Shown here in pieces: positions 53,366 through 64,000 of a stretch of DNA of 64,000 nt. The stretch lies in NCBI GenBank assembly GCA_963674535.1, contig OY771363.1, positions 348,719 to 412,718 on the forward strand. Direction: 5' to 3'. The position numbers and the translations under genes are program-made. The stretch's first letter is position 1, and every line of letters begins with the position of its first letter. The stretch comes from Christensenellaceae bacterium. Its GTDB lineage: Bacteria > Bacillota > Clostridia > Christensenellales > CAG-138. The notes below the pieces were generated by a model. That model was given only the letters and a program-made list of their open reading frames with translations. It searched no databases and had not been told where the DNA came from.

Positions 53366-53773
53366 TGTTGTTCTCCTCCAAGCGCTTTGCTTTTTTCATA
53401 AAAAAACACCCTCCGGCCGTCTGGCTGAAGGGTGTTCTGTTCGGTAAAAAAAGAACCGCCCGCCTTGTTCGGCAAGAGGACGAATTTCTTCGCGGTACCA
53501 CCTCGGTTTGCCGCGCCCTTGCGGGATGCGGCCTCAACGGGTACGGACAGCACTGTTTTGCAAAATCGATACCCTGCCTTTGGTAACGGGGAGGAGCCCC
53601 GTCCGTCCCTACTCGGCATACTTGCGTTTCAGGCGGCGGCTGGTTGCGCGTATTCGCGGGGCGTTCCCTTCTGCCTTGCACCATCCGGCAGCTCTCTGAT
53701 GGGACGTTCTTGGGCCAAGGCCCGTTTTCCCGTTACTTCTTCGCAGTCATAGCCTTTGCTGTGTCCTAAATTA
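53366..53773 (-). promoter_or_regulatory. T-box riboswitch leader (specifier most likely UAC/Tyr) of the lyase gene
   Basis: Minus strand: UGCGAAGAAGUAACGGG, AG bulge AUCAGAGAG, distal loop GGAUGGUGCAAGG, specifier-loop candidate CGAAUACG (UAC = complement of 53650..53652) closed by UGCG/CGCA, and canonical T-box AACCGAGGUGGUACCGCG (complement of 53491..53508). Terminator-like hairpins with U7 lie at 53446..53481 and 53400..53436. Confidence 0.8.
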
Positions 53774-60942: not shown

Positions 60943-61120
60943 AAGCCTCCTTGTCTGAAACGGGTTTGGTGACAAAGTGCAATCTGCGCACGCGTCTGAA
61001 GAAGTGTTGGATTGAAAGAGAAAGGATCCTTTTTTGAGATTATACAACCATTGAACGATAAATTTTCGTATTTCATCAGAATTTCACAATTGATTATTGT
61101 TTGATAGGGCGTTTTCGCCG

Positions 61121-61157
61121 TAAACGAAGAAAGAGGAACCGATTGGCGCGGTTCCTC
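61121..61157 (-). terminator. Terminator downstream of metY
   Basis: Minus strand: GAGGAACC-loop-GGTTCCTC followed by TTTCTTCGTTT. Confidence 0.6.
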
Positions 61158-61187
61158 AAATTGAGTTTTTGCTGGCTTTTTACTCGC

Positions 61188-62477
61188 TTACTTTTTCACC
61201 ACCCGGAACGCGTTTCCCAACGCTTCGATCAGGTCGTCCGCGTGCTCGGTGCCGATTGAAAGACGGATCGTGTTGGGCTTGATGCCCTGCTCCAGCAATT
61301 CGGCGGGGCTGAGCTGGGAGTGCGTCGTGGAGGCAGGGTGGATGACCAGCGACTTGACGTCCGCAACGTTAGCCAGCAGCGAAAAGATATCGAGATTGTC
61401 GATAAACGCCTTGGCGTCCTCTTCCGTTCCCTTGATTTCGAAGGTAAAGATGGAGCCGCCGCCGTTGGGGAAATACTTTTCGTAGAGCTTGTGGCTGGGT
61501 TCGCTCTTGAGCGAAGGATGGTGCACAGCTTCCACCTGCGGGTGTTTGTCCAAATATTTTACGATCTTCAGCGCGTTTTCCACATGCCGCTCCACGCGGA
61601 GGGAGAGCGTCTCAAGCCCCTGCAAAAAGAGGAACGAATGGAAGGGCGAAAGCGTCGCTCCCGTATCCCGCAGCACGATGGCGCGGAGGTAGGTGGCAAA
61701 CGCGGCGGGCGACGCGGCGTCCGCAAAGCTCAGCCCGTGATAGCTCGGGTTCGGTTCGGAAATCCAGGGGAACTTGCCGGAGGCTTTCCAGTCGAACTTG
61801 CCGCCCTCGACGATCACCCCGCCGATGGCCGTGCCGTGGCCGCCGATGAACTTTGTCGCGCTGTGAATGACGATATCCGCGCCGTATTCGAACGGGCGCA
61901 GCAGATAGGGTGTGGCGAACGTGGAATCGACCACGAGCGGAATGTGGTGCGCATGCGCGAGCTTTGCGAGTTCCTCAATGTCTATGACGTTCGAATGCGG
62001 GTTGCCGAGGGATTCGATAAAGAGAGCCTTGGTTTTTTCGGTAATCGCGGCGGCAAACGAACCCTTGACGTAGGGATCGACAAACGTCGTTGTGACGCCG
62101 TGCAGCGGGGCGGTATGCGCAAGGTAGTTATACGTGCCGCCGTAGATGGTTTTGGAAGCGACAATGTGCTCGCCCTGCGCCGCCAGCGCCTGAATGGTGT
62201 AGCTCAGCGCTGCCGCCCCGGAAGCCACGGCCAGTGCCGCGGAACCGCCTTCCAACGCCGCGATGCGCCGCTCAAACACGTCCTGCGTAGGGTTGGTCAG
62301 GCGGCTGTAGATGTTGCCCGGGTCGCGCAGGCCGAAACGATCCGCCGCATGCTGGGCGTTATGGAACACATACGAAGTGGAGGCGTAAATCGGCACCGCA
62401 CGCGCGTCGGTTGCGGGGTCGGCGGCCTCCTGGCCGACATGGAGCTGCAGGGTCTCAAAATGATAGTTTTTTGACAT
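61188..62477 (-). CDS. metY: O-acetylhomoserine aminocarboxypropyltransferase / sulfhydrylase (Cys/Met PLP family)
   Basis: FETLQLHVGQ...DARAVPIYASTSYVF, YSRLTNPT, SATKFIGGHGT (PLP-Lys) and ANVADVKSLVIHPASTTH. Confidence 0.9.
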   Translation of the reverse strand: MSKNYHFETLQLHVGQEAADPATDARAVPIYASTSYVFHNAQHAADRFGLRDPGNIYSRLTNPTQDVFERRIAALEGGSAALAVASGAAALSYTIQALAAQGEHIVASKTIYGGTYNYLAHTAPLHGVTTTFVDPYVKGSFAAAITEKTKALFIESLGNPHSNVIDIEELAKLAHAHHIPLVVDSTFATPYLLRPFEYGADIVIHSATKFIGGHGTAIGGVIVEGGKFDWKASGKFPWISEPNPSYHGLSFADAASPAAFATYLRAIVLRDTGATLSPFHSFLFLQGLETLSLRVERHVENALKIVKYLDKHPQVEAVHHPSLKSEPSHKLYEKYFPNGGGSIFTFEIKGTEEDAKAFIDNLDIFSLLANVADVKSLVIHPASTTHSQLSPAELLEQGIKPNTIRLSIGTEHADDLIEALGNAFRVVKK

Positions 62478-62630
62478 GACGGGATTCTCCTTTATATCGT
62501 TTATAATTTTATTAGTCGGGAGCAGGGTGCTTTGATTCGCCGCACATTCGAAACGGTGTATTTTTGCCGTTCCGTACGCGTATGGCCGAGTTTTCCTGTT
62601 GGAACATTGCGAACTCTCCTTTCTTTGCGT

Positions 62631-62662
62631 AAAAAAAGAGCAGGAAGCCTGTGGCCTCCTGC
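62631..62662 (-). terminator. Intrinsic terminator inside the metY leader (about 150 nt upstream of the start codon)
   Basis: Minus strand: GCAGGAGGCC-aca-GGCTTCCTGC, then TC and TTTTTTT. Confidence 0.75.
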
Positions 62663-62870
62663 GGGTTTGCGCTGTTCGATTTGCCTCTTTAAGTTACGGC
62701 AAATTTGATGCGGCGCGGATTGAAACCCCTTGCGTGAAGCATGGCTCTAATGATTTCGTATGCGCGGCACATGCACATCTGCTTCATTGGGGTGTAATCC
62801 GTCCTTTCTGTTTGGGCTGGGAACCGCTTTTTGATTCGAAAAACATATAAAAAATATATGTGTTTTGAGA

Positions 62871-62899
62871 ATAATGCCACATGAGATTCCACTTGTCAA
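62871..62899 (-). promoter_or_regulatory. Sigma-70-like promoter of the metY leader
   Basis: Minus strand: TTGACA, 17 nt, CATTAT (preceded by TGg). Confidence 0.55.
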
Positions 62900-62985
62900 G
62901 AAAAAGTTTTGGTAGTTTACTAAAAGCAGGGCGAACGGAACGAGTTTGAACGGTTCGACCAAACCGATACAAAGAGGAAACACGG

Positions 62986-63906
62986 ATGGAGCTTCATAAT
63001 CTTGCGCAGAGCGGCGGCGCACCCGCCGAGATCGTATTTCATATGATGGACGAACAGGGCTGCGCGCGCGACGTAAGGCGCGTGTTCCTGCCGCCGCAGA
63101 GGCTGATATTGCTCGGCGGGGGGCATGTTTCCCGCGCGCTCTGCGGATATGCCGCCGATCTCGGATTCGATGTGGTGGTGGTGGACGACCGCCCGGCTTA
63201 CGCCAACGAGGAACGATTCCCGCTGGCAAGCAGGGTTCTTTGCGACGGGTTTGAGCGCGCCATACGGGAGCTTGCGATCACGGAATACGACTATATCGCC
63301 GTTGTAACCCGCGGGCACCGGCACGACGCGCTGTGCCTCCGCGCCATCTTTGGCGGCGGCGTCATGCCGTATTACCTCGGCCTGATCGGCTCACGGCGGC
63401 GCACCACGGAGCTTTTCGCGCTGCTGAAGGAGGAAGGGTTTGATCCCGCCAAGATCGAGCGGGTGCATACGCCCATCGGCCTGCCCATCGGCGCGGAAAC
63501 GCCCAAGGAGATTGCCATTTCGATTCTCGCTGAACTGATTCTCATGCGCAGCAAACAGAACGTCGATGCGGAAGGTTTATTGGAACTGACGTCCGGCGAG
63601 CCGGAACTGCGGCGCGTGCTGCTGGAGAACAAGGAGCCGCGAGCGCTGGCGGTCGTGGTCAAGCAGGCGGGTTCCACGCCGGTTCCGCCGGGGGCGATCA
63701 TGCTGGTCGATCAGATTGGCGGTATCGTCGGTACGGTAGGCGGGGGCTGCGGCGAGCACGAAATCGTACTGCGCGCGCTGGAAGTGCTGCGCACCGGCAA
63801 GCCGGAGCTGGTCACGCTGGACATGACAAACGACGTTGCCGCCGACGAAGGCATGGTCTGCGGCGGACGCATGACGGTTTGGATTGAGCTGGTAAAAATT
63901 CAATAA
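62986..63906 (+). CDS. XdhC/CoxI-family molybdoenzyme maturation factor, apparent swapped domain order
   Basis: The N-terminal part is a Rossmann-like XdhC_C pattern (RLILLGGGHVSRALCGYAADLGFDVVVVDDRP...VTRGHRHD...YLGLIGSRRR...PIGLPIGAETPKEIAISILAELI). The C-terminal part is an XdhC_CoxI pattern (ALAVVVKQAGSTPVPPGAIMLVD..GGIVGTVGGGCGE...CGGRMTVWIE). Confidence 0.8.
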   Translation: MELHNLAQSGGAPAEIVFHMMDEQGCARDVRRVFLPPQRLILLGGGHVSRALCGYAADLGFDVVVVDDRPAYANEERFPLASRVLCDGFERAIRELAITEYDYIAVVTRGHRHDALCLRAIFGGGVMPYYLGLIGSRRRTTELFALLKEEGFDPAKIERVHTPIGLPIGAETPKEIAISILAELILMRSKQNVDAEGLLELTSGEPELRRVLLENKEPRALAVVVKQAGSTPVPPGAIMLVDQIGGIVGTVGGGCGEHEIVLRALEVLRTGKPELVTLDMTNDVAADEGMVCGGRMTVWIELVKIQ

Positions 63907-64000
63907 AGCAAGTTTGCCGCGTCTTGCGGCAGGAAAAACCGGTTGGCGCGCTGCCAGCCGGTTCTGCGTTGATGGATTGTGAAAAAACCCTTGACAGTCC

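What the first reader, a model, noticed from the sequence alone, without database searches (positions are those of the whole stretch)
62478..62899. Roughly 390-nt leader of metY with a promoter and an internal intrinsic terminator but no recognisable S-box or T-box core
Seen (minus strand): a TTGACA-17-CATTAT promoter, then about 240 nt of structured RNA, then a strong terminator about 150 nt before the metY start (GCAGGAGGCC-aca-GGCTTCCTGC, then TC and U7). The structured RNA includes nested pairings GGAUU/AAUCC, CCCC/GGGG and GAAGCA/UGCUUC, plus a UUUGCC...GGCAAA hairpin.

Established knowledge: methionine and sulfur genes in Firmicutes are usually behind SAM-I (S-box) riboswitches or Met T-boxes. 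I cannot find the S-box core (GAGGGA, GGCAACC, GGUGCUAAUUCC-type) or the T-box GGUGGUACCGCG here.

Inference: this is either a different or undescribed attenuator or riboswitch class, or a small-RNA or small-protein locus placed in front of metY.
Basis: partly seen in the sequence, partly recalled or inferred. Interest (0 to 1): 0.6.

Follow-up and report, generated by a model that had tools for sequence, protein, structure and literature searches.

The report
Three-layer methionine/cysteine control leader of metY
The 390-base stretch ahead of the methionine-synthesis gene metY is not a known riboswitch. It most likely combines a repressor binding site with two tiny upstream coding frames that let stalled ribosomes report methionine and cysteine shortage, a design not found in the literature searched for this pathway.

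Summary
The promoter, a structured leader of about 235 nt, a strong intrinsic terminator and a further 150 nt before metY are all present. They are conserved in nine sequence variants. No Rfam family matches, although the same search finds a T-box in this window and an S-box before metK in this genome.

The leader has three layers:
1. **Operator.** A perfect 7-5-7 palindrome (ACATATA-N5-TATATGT) lies just after the -10. The same motif sits before cysK in 19 loci of the genus, next to a CymR-like Rrf2 gene.
2. **ORF1.** It always has 32 codons and begins M-K-(Q/L)-M-C-M-C. It lies inside a hairpin whose 3' strand can alternatively pair with the terminator's 5' arm. This is the classical 1:2 / 2:3 / 3:4 attenuator layout with Met/Cys sensor codons.
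3. **ORF2.** It is a diverged member of a widespread small-ORF family before metY with an in-frame CGA-AUG-UGN core. That core occurs in 29 of 80 metY leaders in the order; the other five Arg codons together give 3.

The best reading is repressor control plus ribosome-mediated attenuation (confidence about 0.55). A ligand-binding RNA is not excluded. No expression data could be obtained.

The parts
62894..62899 (-). -35 hexamer TTGACA of the metY promoter
   Evidence: Consensus scan. Invariant in all nine leader variants.
62871..62876 (-). -10 hexamer CATTAT with an upstream TG
   Evidence: Consensus scan, 17-nt spacer, 10 of 12 matches. Conserved in the variants.
62843..62861 (.). Perfect palindrome ACATATA-TTTTT-TATATGT, at about +4 to +22 of the predicted transcript. 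Candidate operator of a CymR-like Rrf2 repressor.
   Evidence: G000 has only two sites with 1 mismatch or fewer. The other lies before cysK, 34 nt past the window end. The pattern occurs in 22 of 40 genus genomes; the reversed control occurs in none. In 19 of 21 loci it lies 20-40 nt before cysK, with xdhC-like and Rrf2 neighbours.
62803..62808 (-). SD-like GAAAGG upstream of ORF1. The spacing to the AUG is long, about 12-15 nt.
   Evidence: Read from the sequence. Conserved in the nine variants as (G)GAAGG/GAAAGG. It corresponds to the SD AAGG(C/G/A)GG of the genus-wide uORF, which has 8-9 nt spacing.
62689..62787 (-). ORF1, the candidate leader peptide MKQMCMCRAYEIIRAMLHARGFNPRRIKFAVT*. Sensor codons AUG UGC AUG UGC lie at 62778-62767.
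   Evidence: - 32 codons in all nine variants.
- M-K-(Q/L)-M-C-M-C is invariant, with one synonymous UGC to UGU change.
- The stop is kept at the same place as TAA (4), TGA (1) or TAG (4).
- In-frame stops: 0, against 19 and 6 in the other two frames.
62717..62800 (-). Hairpin domain enclosing the ORF1 start.
- P1: GGAUU 62800-62796 with AAUCC 62721-62717
- P2: CCCC 62792-62789 with GGGG 62729-62726
- P3 (segment 1:2): UGAAGCA 62786-62780 with UGCUUCA 62741-62735
- P4: AUGUGC 62778-62773 with GCGCAU 62765-62760
   Evidence: Present in the MFE folds. A helix enclosing the AUG is predicted in 9 of 9 variants, and P3 in 8 of 9. The basal helix is kept in two forms: CCCC:GGGG or ACCC:GGGU, and (A)ACGUUCC:GGAACGU(U).
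62732..62740 (-). Segment 2, GCUUCACGC. It can pair either with segment 1 (P3) or with the 5' arm of the terminator, which would make an antiterminator.
   Evidence: Constraint folding with ORF1 nt -5 to +36 masked and RNA polymerase at the terminator loop gives 7-8 bp of segment 2:3 in 8 of 9 variants. Free RNA gives this in only 2 of 9.
62631..62662 (-). Intrinsic terminator: stem 62662-62640, U7 at 62637-62631. These are segments 3 and 4.
   Evidence: Folds at -17.3 to -18.5 kcal/mol. Formed in the free full-length MFE of 9 of 9 variants.
62512..62607 (-). ORF2, MFQQENSAIRVRNGKNTPFRMCGESKHPAPD*. Strong SD GAAAGGAG at 62623-62616. In-frame CGA AUG UGC at 62550-62542.
   Evidence: - F-R(CGA)-M(AUG) is invariant in the nine variants; the next codon is C, R or P and the stop position varies.
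- The same CGA-AUG-UGN core occurs in the genus uORF in 26 of 26 leaders, and that uORF is shown to be coding.
- It occurs in 29 of 80 metY leaders of the order.
62753..62768 (-). 5' strand (GCCGCGCAUACGAAAU) of a long-range complementarity with 62554-62539 (GUUUCGAAUGUGCGGC, the R-M-C codons of ORF2). Its role is unexplained.
   Evidence: 15, 14 and 15 of 16 pairs in G000, G006 and G012. It resembles the GCGCAU:AUGUGC helix of the genus-wide leader.
62475..62493 (-). metY ribosome-binding site: AAAGGAG at 62493-62487 and start codon at 62477-62475
   Evidence: metY matches PF01053 at 1.3e-131 and TIGR01326 at 602.9 bits.

Best explanation
The region is the 5' leader of metY (O-acetylhomoserine sulfhydrylase). 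It most likely carries three controls in series.

1. **Transcription initiation (inferred).** A 7-5-7 palindrome just downstream of the -10 is the operator of a sulfur-regulon repressor. The most likely repressor is the CymR-like Rrf2 protein encoded next to cysK, whose promoter carries the same operator.

2. **Transcription attenuation (inferred from anatomy and comparison).**
   - ORF1 (32 codons) begins M-K-Q-M-C-M-C.
   - When Met-tRNA or Cys-tRNA is scarce, a ribosome stalls on these codons and covers segment 1 (UGAAGCA).
   - Segment 2 (GCUUCACGC) is then free to pair with the terminator's 5' arm, and RNA polymerase reads through.
   - When both amino acids are plentiful, or ORF1 is not translated, segments 1:2 re-form. 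The terminator (3:4) forms and transcription stops after about 235 nt.

3. **Read-through transcripts (homology shown, mechanism inferred).**
   - ORF2 is a diverged member of a widespread metY leader-peptide family with an in-frame Arg(CGA)-Met(AUG)-UGN core.
   - It is translated from a strong SD.
   - A ribosome pausing at the Met codon probably modulates metY translation or transcript survival.
For: **Known RNA switches are absent.**
- No Rfam hit at E <= 10, with working positive controls.

**Operator.**
- G000 has exactly two near-perfect sites, before metY and before cysK, both just after a -10.
- The pattern occurs in 22 of 40 genus genomes, against 0 for the reversed control.
- It lies before cysK in 19 of 21 loci, with an Rrf2 gene alongside. 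In G036 it lies directly before that genome's metY leader.
- The half-sites are invariant while the spacer varies, for example in L111.
- The best specific family for the Rrf2 protein is CymR.

**ORF1.**
- In nine distinct variants it keeps 32 codons, the MCMC motif (one synonymous change) and a stop at the same position, written as TAA, TGA or TAG.
- There are no in-frame stops, against 19 and 6 in the other frames.
- The stalled-ribosome geometry fits: the sensor codons lie at ORF1 nt 10-21, segment 1 at nt 2-8 and segment 2 at nt 48-56 (read from the sequence).
- With the ribosome footprint masked, segment 2:3 forms in 8 of 9 variants. In free RNA it forms in 2 of 9. The terminator forms in free RNA in 9 of 9.
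- The hairpin is kept through changed sequence, CCCC:GGGG to ACCC:GGGU or UUCC:GGAA.

**ORF2 and its family.**
- The genus uORF is coding. It has 0 in-frame stops in 25 distinct sequences, against 38 and 5 off-frame. Synonymous to non-synonymous differences are 1027:1112 in frame, against 438:1674 and 491:1725 off-frame.
- CGA-AUG is invariant in 26 of 26 genus leaders.
- In the order, 29 of 80 metY leaders have such a uORF with CGA-AUG. The other five Arg codons together give 3, and control codon pairs give 0-2.
- Met/Cys-rich uORFs followed by T-runs also occur before metY in other families.

**Context.**
- The only S-box in the genome controls metK.
- 19 of 20 other metY loci lack any Rfam element.
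Against: - There is no expression, ribosome-profiling or transcript-end data.
- ORF1 has a poor ribosome-binding site: GAAAGG lies 12-15 nt from the AUG. Both the SD-like region and the AUG lie inside the predicted hairpin, so loading would have to be co-transcriptional.
- After codon 8, ORF1 shows no protein-level constraint (47 synonymous to 230 non-synonymous differences). This fits a leader peptide but also fits a non-coding RNA.
- The 23 invariant bases around MCMC are also helix strands P3 and P4, so RNA constraint alone could explain them.
- The nine variants are close relatives (MetY 96-100% identical), so open frames and shared stops are not independent events.
- In two variants (G006, G012) the antiterminator also forms without masking. 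In one (L115) it forms in neither state.
- Only four sensor codons are present.
- ORF2 lacks the family's upstream consensus L-V-R-x-N-F-R-F-G, and its stop position drifts.
- The Rrf2 protein scores below the CymR equivalog cut-off (93.9 against 195). Its link to the palindrome rests on co-location only.
Confidence: 0.55

Rival explanations
1. The P1-P4 hairpin (62800-62717) is the aptamer of an undescribed riboswitch. A ligand such as SAM, methionine or homocysteine stabilises it as an anti-antiterminator, so the terminator forms. ORF1 is a by-product of conserved helix strands.
For: - The RNA logic (hairpin against segment 2:3 against terminator) is the same whichever sensor is used.
- The hairpin is kept through compensatory-type changes.
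- Blocks are invariant at wobble positions: AUGAAGCAGAUGUGCAUGUGCCG, CACGCAAGG and CGCGCCGC.
- ORF1 has a poor SD spacing, and its start lies inside the helix.
- ORF1 shows no synonymous excess.
Against: - There is no match to any Rfam family.
- The open 32-codon frame and the stop, kept as three different stop codons, would be unexplained.
- The MCMC codons sit exactly where a stalled ribosome would mask segment 1.
- The leader belongs to a lineage of metY leaders whose uORF is demonstrably coding.
- The hairpin is a long, mostly regular stem without an obvious multi-helix junction.
Confidence: 0.17
2. Only the operator regulates. The terminator is a constitutive, partly leaky stop (or the end of a small RNA or small-protein transcript), and the two small ORFs have no sensing role.
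For: - The operator evidence is the strongest single component.
- Terminator-like sites are not above chance in the simple scan.
- The promoter, 235 nt and a terminator could together make a stand-alone small transcript.
Against: - A strong terminator between a promoter and its only downstream gene, conserved in nine variants together with an alternative pairing that disrupts it, is hard to explain without conditional read-through.
- No other promoter-like site for metY lies downstream of the terminator on this strand.
- The ORF2 core is shared with 29 of 80 metY leaders.
Confidence: 0.1
3. An RNA-binding protein binds the conserved hairpin and decides between terminator and antiterminator, in the manner of TRAP, PyrR or a BglG/SacY-type antiterminator.
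For: There are conserved invariant blocks in and around the hairpin, and the RNA logic is compatible.
Against: - No candidate RNA-binding protein gene lies in the conserved neighbourhood of xdhC-like, cysK, rrf2 and a MacB-type transporter.
- There is no repeated triplet or RAT-like motif.
- Rfam holds no such element.
Confidence: 0.06

Closest known systems
Classical leader-peptide transcription attenuators (trpL, hisL, pheL, thrL, leuL, ilvL of Proteobacteria; ilvB and trp leaders of Actinobacteria)
   Same: - A short leader ORF with clustered codons for the end-product amino acids.
- The sensor codons sit so that a stalled ribosome masks segment 1.
- Mutually exclusive 1:2, 2:3 and 3:4 pairings.
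- An intrinsic terminator, with the ORF's stop codon ahead of it.
   Different: - The sensor codons are Met and Cys (M-C-M-C). No such leader was found in the literature searched for a methionine gene in Firmicutes.
- The ORF runs 25 codons past the sensor codons and through segment 2.
- The SD spacing is poor.
- The attenuator is combined with a DNA operator and a second uORF.
- Function has not been tested.
Cysteine-codon leader ORFs of Actinobacteria (Seliverstov et al. 2005, PMC1262725; polycysteine leaderless sORFs of mycobacteria, bioRxiv 10.1101/834739)
   Same: Short upstream ORFs with sulfur amino-acid codons near their end, ahead of cysteine or sulfur metabolism genes. The 2005 paper proposes that they act through ribosome stalling, and notes that its mycobacterial examples lack a conserved terminator hairpin. 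This resembles the genus-wide metY uORF found here.
   Different: - Different phylum, and no sequence relationship.
- Here Met codons are central.
- The uORF family has a fixed CGA-AUG-UGN core and, in most families, a conserved peptide (LVRxNFRFGRMC).
- The window's ORF1 does have an intrinsic terminator.
S-box (SAM-I) riboswitch control of metY and other met genes in Firmicutes
   Same: The same position (metY leader) and the same output logic: a structure that protects the terminator when sulfur amino-acid supply is high.
   Different: - The covariance model does not match.
- In this genome the S-box is kept only before metK.
- A metY orthologue in another family of the order (G037) does carry an S-box.
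CymR (Rrf2 family) repression of cysteine metabolism genes in Bacillus subtilis and Staphylococcus aureus (background in PMC2940859)
   Same: - An Rrf2-family regulator without the cysteine ligands of IscR, encoded next to cysK.
- An AT-rich inverted repeat overlapping the promoters of cysK and a sulfhydrylase gene.
   Different: - The protein scores below the CymR equivalog cut-off (93.9 against 195 bits).
- The 7-5-7 palindrome RCATATA-N5-TATATGY looks different from the B. subtilis CymR box, which I recall only from memory; this was not tested.
- Binding has not been shown.
Metabolite-sensing arrest peptides (TnaC, SpeFL; the plant CGS1 MTO1 region that senses SAM, PMC7038982)
   Same: A conserved peptide of about 16 residues lies immediately upstream of a fixed stall-candidate site in the ORF2 family. 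This resembles peptides that act inside the exit tunnel. CGS1 shows that a methionine-pathway gene can be controlled in this way.
   Different: No stalling has been shown. The window's own ORF2 has lost most of the conserved peptide. For a biosynthetic gene, simple starvation sensing at the Met codon is enough to explain the design.

Membership tests
SAM-I / S-box riboswitch (RF00162) and other SAM/SAH riboswitch classes in Rfam 15 | Match to the family covariance model (conserved core and helices) at or near the gathering score | tested here: not met
   No match at E <= 10 on 61000-64000 or on 62470-62900. Positive control: an S-box of 80.9 bits before metK in the same genome.
T-box leader (RF00230) | Specifier loop, T-box sequence and antiterminator bulge, as scored by the covariance model | tested here: not met
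   No match at E <= 10. Positive control: a T-box at 53473-53759 of this window, 80.1 bits, E 1e-17. By eye, the segment 2:3 helix has no UGGN bulge.
Leader-peptide transcription attenuator | A short ORF in the leader with a start codon and a usable ribosome-binding site | tested here: inconclusive
   The AUG and a 32-codon frame are kept in 9 of 9 variants. However, the SD-like GAAAGG lies 12-15 nt upstream, and both it and the AUG lie in the predicted hairpin.
Leader-peptide transcription attenuator | Clustered codons for the amino acid(s) made by the regulated pathway | tested here: met
   AUG UGC AUG UGC at codons 4-7, invariant at the amino-acid level in nine variants with one synonymous change. 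metY makes homocysteine from sulfide (TIGR01326).
Leader-peptide transcription attenuator | An intrinsic terminator downstream of the ORF's stop codon | tested here: met
   A 10-bp stem plus U7 starts 27 nt after the ORF1 stop. It is present in 9 of 9 variants.
Leader-peptide transcription attenuator | Mutually exclusive pairings, in which a ribosome stalled on the sensor codons frees an antiterminator strand | tested here: met
   Computational only. With the footprint masked, segment 2:3 forms 7-8 bp in 8 of 9 variants. It forms in free RNA in 2 of 9. The terminator is in the free MFE of 9 of 9.
Leader-peptide transcription attenuator | Read-through responds to charged-tRNA supply in vivo or in vitro | not testable with these tools
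Arg(CGA)-Met leader-peptide family before metY (unnamed; defined here and in earlier notes of this scan) | A small ORF with SD directly upstream of metY containing in-frame CGA-AUG followed by UGN | tested here: met
   ORF2 has SD GAAAGGAG and CGA AUG UGC at 62550-62542. The family occurs in 26 of 26 genus leaders and in 29 of 80 leaders in the order, with strong codon specificity.
Arg(CGA)-Met leader-peptide family before metY (unnamed; defined here and in earlier notes of this scan) | Conserved peptide L-V/I-R-x-N-F-R-F-G immediately before R-M, about 16 residues from the start | tested here: not met
   ORF2 reads ..IRVRNGKNTPF-RM, with 19 residues before R-M. Only F-R-M is invariant in the nine variants. 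ORF2 is therefore at best a diverged member.
CymR-type (Rrf2) repressor and operator | The regulator is an orthologue of CymR | tested here: not met
   NF047409 CymR scores 93.9 bits against a cut-off of 195. The Rrf2 superfamily model scores 99.4 against a cut-off of 73.3. This is an Rrf2 protein that is CymR-like, not a confirmed CymR.
CymR-type (Rrf2) repressor and operator | An inverted repeat at the promoters of cysteine/sulfur genes, co-occurring with the regulator gene | tested here: met
   Binding itself cannot be tested here.

The most novel reading that the evidence does not exclude
The CGA-AUG-UGN small ORFs before metY, of which ORF2 is a diverged copy, encode a new class of bacterial regulatory nascent peptide. 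In this reading the conserved L-V-R-x-N-F-R-F-G-R-M chain, with the slowly decoded CGA in the P site, arrests the ribosome in response to methionine supply, either as Met-tRNA or as a free ligand such as Met or SAM in the exit tunnel. This would make the ribosome itself the methionine sensor in many Clostridia that lack an S-box on metY. The window would then show two ribosome-based sensors in series behind a repressor operator.
Probability: 0.2. Interest if true: 0.85.

Novelty: new variant of a known kind. Interest (0 to 1): 0.62.

Why it matters
Methionine genes in Firmicutes are textbook examples of S-box and T-box control. In this genus and in many related Clostridia, metY carries neither.

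Instead it has small upstream reading frames with methionine and cysteine codons. One family of these is conserved across many families of the order, with a fixed rare-codon pair (CGA-AUG). If the mechanism holds, three things follow:
- Ribosome-mediated attenuation extends to the sulfur amino acids in Gram-positive anaerobes.
- There is a natural example of three stacked controls (repressor, attenuator, uORF) on one gene.
- A compact, testable candidate for a methionine-responsive stalling peptide becomes available.

It also matters for annotation. These leaders and small ORFs are invisible to current RNA-family and gene-calling pipelines.

Tried and rejected
**Known families.**
- S-box, T-box and all other Rfam families were rejected, with positive controls.
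- A T-box-like display of AUG/UGC in the P4 loop was considered and rejected. There is no T-box sequence, no UGGN bulge and no model hit.

**Searches that found little.**
- The exact ORF1 motif in genome contigs found only the three genomes already known.
- A codon-degenerate ORF1 motif in metagenome contigs found nothing. A JGI contig fetched later (L111) does carry the motif, so that negative result reflects coverage of the collection.
- Covariance model R1 of the genus-wide leader found the leader in 26 of 40 genus genomes. It found nothing real in 400 other genomes of the order (the four weak hits lie in coding regions or match only a promoter-proximal stretch before an unrelated gene). 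It did not find G000 itself. The wider family only emerged from reading the regions upstream of MetY orthologues.
- No other CGA-AUG uORF was found in the G000 genome.
- A literature search for the peptide motif found nothing.

**Structural candidates set aside.**
- GGUUCCCAG (62824-62816) was rejected as the antiterminator partner, because G006 has deleted it.
- The UUUGCC/GGCAAA hairpin is not conserved in the second group of variants.
- Column-wise covariation counts on MAFFT alignment A4 mis-score the basal helix, because its register differs between the two forms. I therefore report per-sequence folds and not count of structure pairs output.

**Not possible.**
Full report
**Observation**

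On the minus strand the region reads as follows.
- A -35 TTGACA (62899-62894), a 17-nt spacer and a -10 CATTAT (62876-62871).
- A leader of about 390 nt.
- The metY start at 62477.

metY is an O-acetylhomoserine sulfhydrylase (PF01053 at 1.3e-131; TIGR01326 at 602.9 bits). A 10-bp, G+C-rich hairpin followed by U7 lies at 62662-62631.

No Rfam 15 family matches at E <= 10, either on 3 kb or on the leader alone. The search is sensitive here. It finds a T-box at 53473-53759 (80.1 bits, E 1e-17). The genome has one S-box, in front of metK.

**A palindromic operator**

Directly after the -10 lies a perfect palindrome, ACATATA-TTTTT-TATATGT (62861-62843). The whole genome has only one other site with at most one mismatch. 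It lies 34 nt beyond the window end, again just after a -10, in front of a cysK gene (TIGR01139, 468.7 bits). That cysK is followed by an Rrf2-family regulator gene and a second cysK paralogue.

Across the genus:
- RCATATA-N5-TATATGY occurs in 22 of 40 genomes, at 1-4 sites each. The reversed control pattern occurs in none.
- In 19 of 21 fetched loci it lies 20-40 nt before cysK, with the xdhC-like and Rrf2 genes alongside.
- In G036 it lies directly before that genome's metY leader.
- Among the leader variants the half-sites are fixed while the spacer varies.

The best specific family for the Rrf2 protein is CymR, but it scores below the equivalog cut-off (93.9 against 195). I infer a CymR-like repressor operator. 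Binding is not shown.

**Relatives of the leader**

Only G006 and G012 share the leader by BLAST. Their MetY is 96-98% identical to the window's, whereas the rest of the genus is at 63-66%. MetY homologues at 96-98% identity from public assemblies gave six further distinct leaders. This makes nine variants, all in the arrangement xdhC-like, divergent promoter region, metY.

**ORF1 and the attenuator**

ORF1 (62787-62689) has these properties in all nine variants:
- It has 32 codons.
- It begins M-K-(Q/L)-M-C-M-C-(R/H), with one synonymous UGC to UGU change.
- It ends at the same position with TAA (4), TGA (1) or TAG (4).
- It has no in-frame stop, against 19 and 6 stops in the other two frames.

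Beyond codon 8 there is no synonymous excess (47:230). The peptide itself is therefore not conserved, as in classical leader peptides. This also means the coding evidence is limited to the frame, the stop and the sensor codons.

The ORF1 start lies inside a hairpin. The helix between the 5' flank and codons 18-26 is predicted in 9 of 9 variants. Its basal part exists in two forms: CCCC:GGGG or ACCC:GGGU with GGAUU:AAUCC, and (A)ACGUUCC:GGAACGU(U).

The inner helix P3 pairs ORF1 nt 2-8 (segment 1) with UGCUUCA in codons 16-18 (segment 2). Segment 2 can alternatively pair with the 5' arm of the terminator. Constraint folding gives these results:
- With a ribosome footprint masked over the MCMC codons and RNA polymerase at the terminator loop, segment 2:3 forms (7-8 bp) in 8 of 9 variants.
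- Without masking it forms in only 2 of 9.
- The terminator is in the free full-length fold of all nine.

This is the classical 1:2 / 2:3 / 3:4 scheme, with Met and Cys as sensor codons.

The weak points are:
- The SD-like GAAAGG lies 12-15 nt from the AUG.
- The start region is sequestered in the hairpin.
- The variants are closely related.
- There are no expression data.

**ORF2 and the wider uORF family**

ORF2 (62607-62512) has a strong SD and an in-frame CGA AUG UGC. F-R(CGA)-M(AUG) is invariant in the nine variants. The next codon (C, R or P) and the stop position vary.

The other metY orthologues of the genus have no Rfam element. They share a different leader. A covariance model of that leader finds one copy per genome in 26 of 40 genomes, always before metY. 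Each copy has a uORF of 24 codons followed by R(CGA)-M(AUG)-C and a short tail.

That uORF is under coding selection:
- It has 0 in-frame stops in 25 distinct sequences, against 38 and 5 off-frame.
- Single-base codon differences are 1027 synonymous to 1112 non-synonymous in frame, against 438:1674 and 491:1725 off-frame.

Reading the 460 nt upstream of 80 further MetY orthologues across the order gave the following:
- 29 have an SD-preceded small ORF with in-frame CGA-AUG. All five other Arg codons together give 3, and control codon pairs give 0-2.
- Most have 16 residues before R-M, with consensus L-V/I-R-x-N-F-R-F-G.
- The codon after AUG is UGC or UGU in 20, UGA in 3 and UGG in 2, which points to a nucleotide-level CGAAUGUG core.

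Further examples are in family f4 and in metagenome contigs. Met/Cys-rich uORFs followed by T-runs also precede metY in other families.

ORF2 therefore looks like a diverged member of a widespread family that I could not find in the literature. The motif search returned nothing, and topic searches found only analogues. In the genus-wide leader no intrinsic terminator follows the uORF. Rho is present in the genome. The output there may be translational or Rho-dependent; this was not resolved.

**Comparison with known systems**

The closest known systems are the classical leader-peptide attenuators and the cysteine-codon leader ORFs of Actinobacteria (PMC1262725; bioRxiv 10.1101/834739). The differences are:
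- the Met/Cys sensor codons in a Firmicute methionine gene;
- the long ORF that runs through segment 2;
- the stacking with a DNA operator and a second uORF.

Membership in the S-box and T-box families was tested and not met.

**Earlier notes of this scan**

Earlier AI notes describe the same CGA-AUG family, and two-uORF metY leaders, in other genomes. They are not independent evidence. I tested the codon-pair claim myself.

**Verdict**

- Best explanation: a CymR-like operator, plus a Met/Cys leader-peptide attenuator (ORF1), plus a diverged Arg-Met uORF (ORF2). Confidence is about 0.55.
- The riboswitch rival stands at about 0.17.

Noticed in passing
window 62753-62768 and 62539-62554 (minus strand): A 16-nt long-range complementarity links ORF1 codons 7-12 (GCCGCGCAUACGAAAU) with the R-M-C codons of ORF2 (GUUUCGAAUGUGCGGC), spanning the terminator. 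It has 15, 14 and 15 of 16 pairs in three species. It resembles the GCGCAU:AUGUGC helix that pairs the uORF start with its R-M-C codons in the genus-wide leader. Its function is unknown.
   Followed up: partly
window 53473-53759 (minus strand): A T-box leader scores 80.1 bits, below Rfam's gathering score of 93. The whole-window gathering scan therefore reported nothing, while the E-value mode finds it at 1e-17.
   Followed up: partly
window 62986-63906 (+) and the genome just beyond the window end (window-equivalent 64034-66669): The synteny xdhC-like, palindrome, cysK, rrf2 is conserved across the genus. In G000 a second cysK paralogue and a ThiF/MoeB-like gene follow. It is unexplained why an XdhC-like maturation factor travels with the cysteine regulon.
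   Followed up: no
window 62900-62931 (minus strand): The block CTGCTTTTAGTAAACTACCAAAACTTTTTC, directly upstream of the -35, is almost invariant in the leader variants. It is more conserved than the leader body. It could be an UP element or a second protein binding site.
   Followed up: no
L022-L037 (metY loci of other genus members): The genus-wide metY promoters carry a conserved AT-rich block, ATATATAGAAAACATATTAAACCTATTGACA, upstream of and overlapping the -35. Similar CCTATTGACA or AATAGG boxes appear at metY promoters in other families (L021, L023, L038, L039). This is probably another transcription-factor site, related to or distinct from the 7-5-7 palindrome.
   Followed up: no
metY, window 61188-62477: MetY of the G000 clade is 81-85% identical to proteins from other Clostridia (labelled Ruminococcus sp. 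or Oscillospiraceae in the sources) but only 63-66% identical to MetY of its own genus. This suggests the gene was acquired or replaced by transfer. One 84% relative (L120) carries a single uORF whose start resembles ORF1 and whose end (CGAAUGUGCGGC) is identical to that of ORF2, as if an ancestral uORF had been split by the terminator module.
   Followed up: partly
80 metY upstream regions of the order (L123-L202): After CGA-AUG the next codon is UGC, UGU, UGA or UGG in 25 of 29 cases. The bases U-G are therefore conserved regardless of meaning (Cys, stop or Trp). This points to an mRNA-level constraint, or a constraint on A-site context.
   Followed up: partly
Metagenome-contig scan versus L111/L112 (JGI 3300045557): The pattern scan of JGI metagenomes returned no hit, although a JGI contig fetched later carries the exact motif. 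Negative results of that scan are therefore not proof of absence.
   Followed up: no
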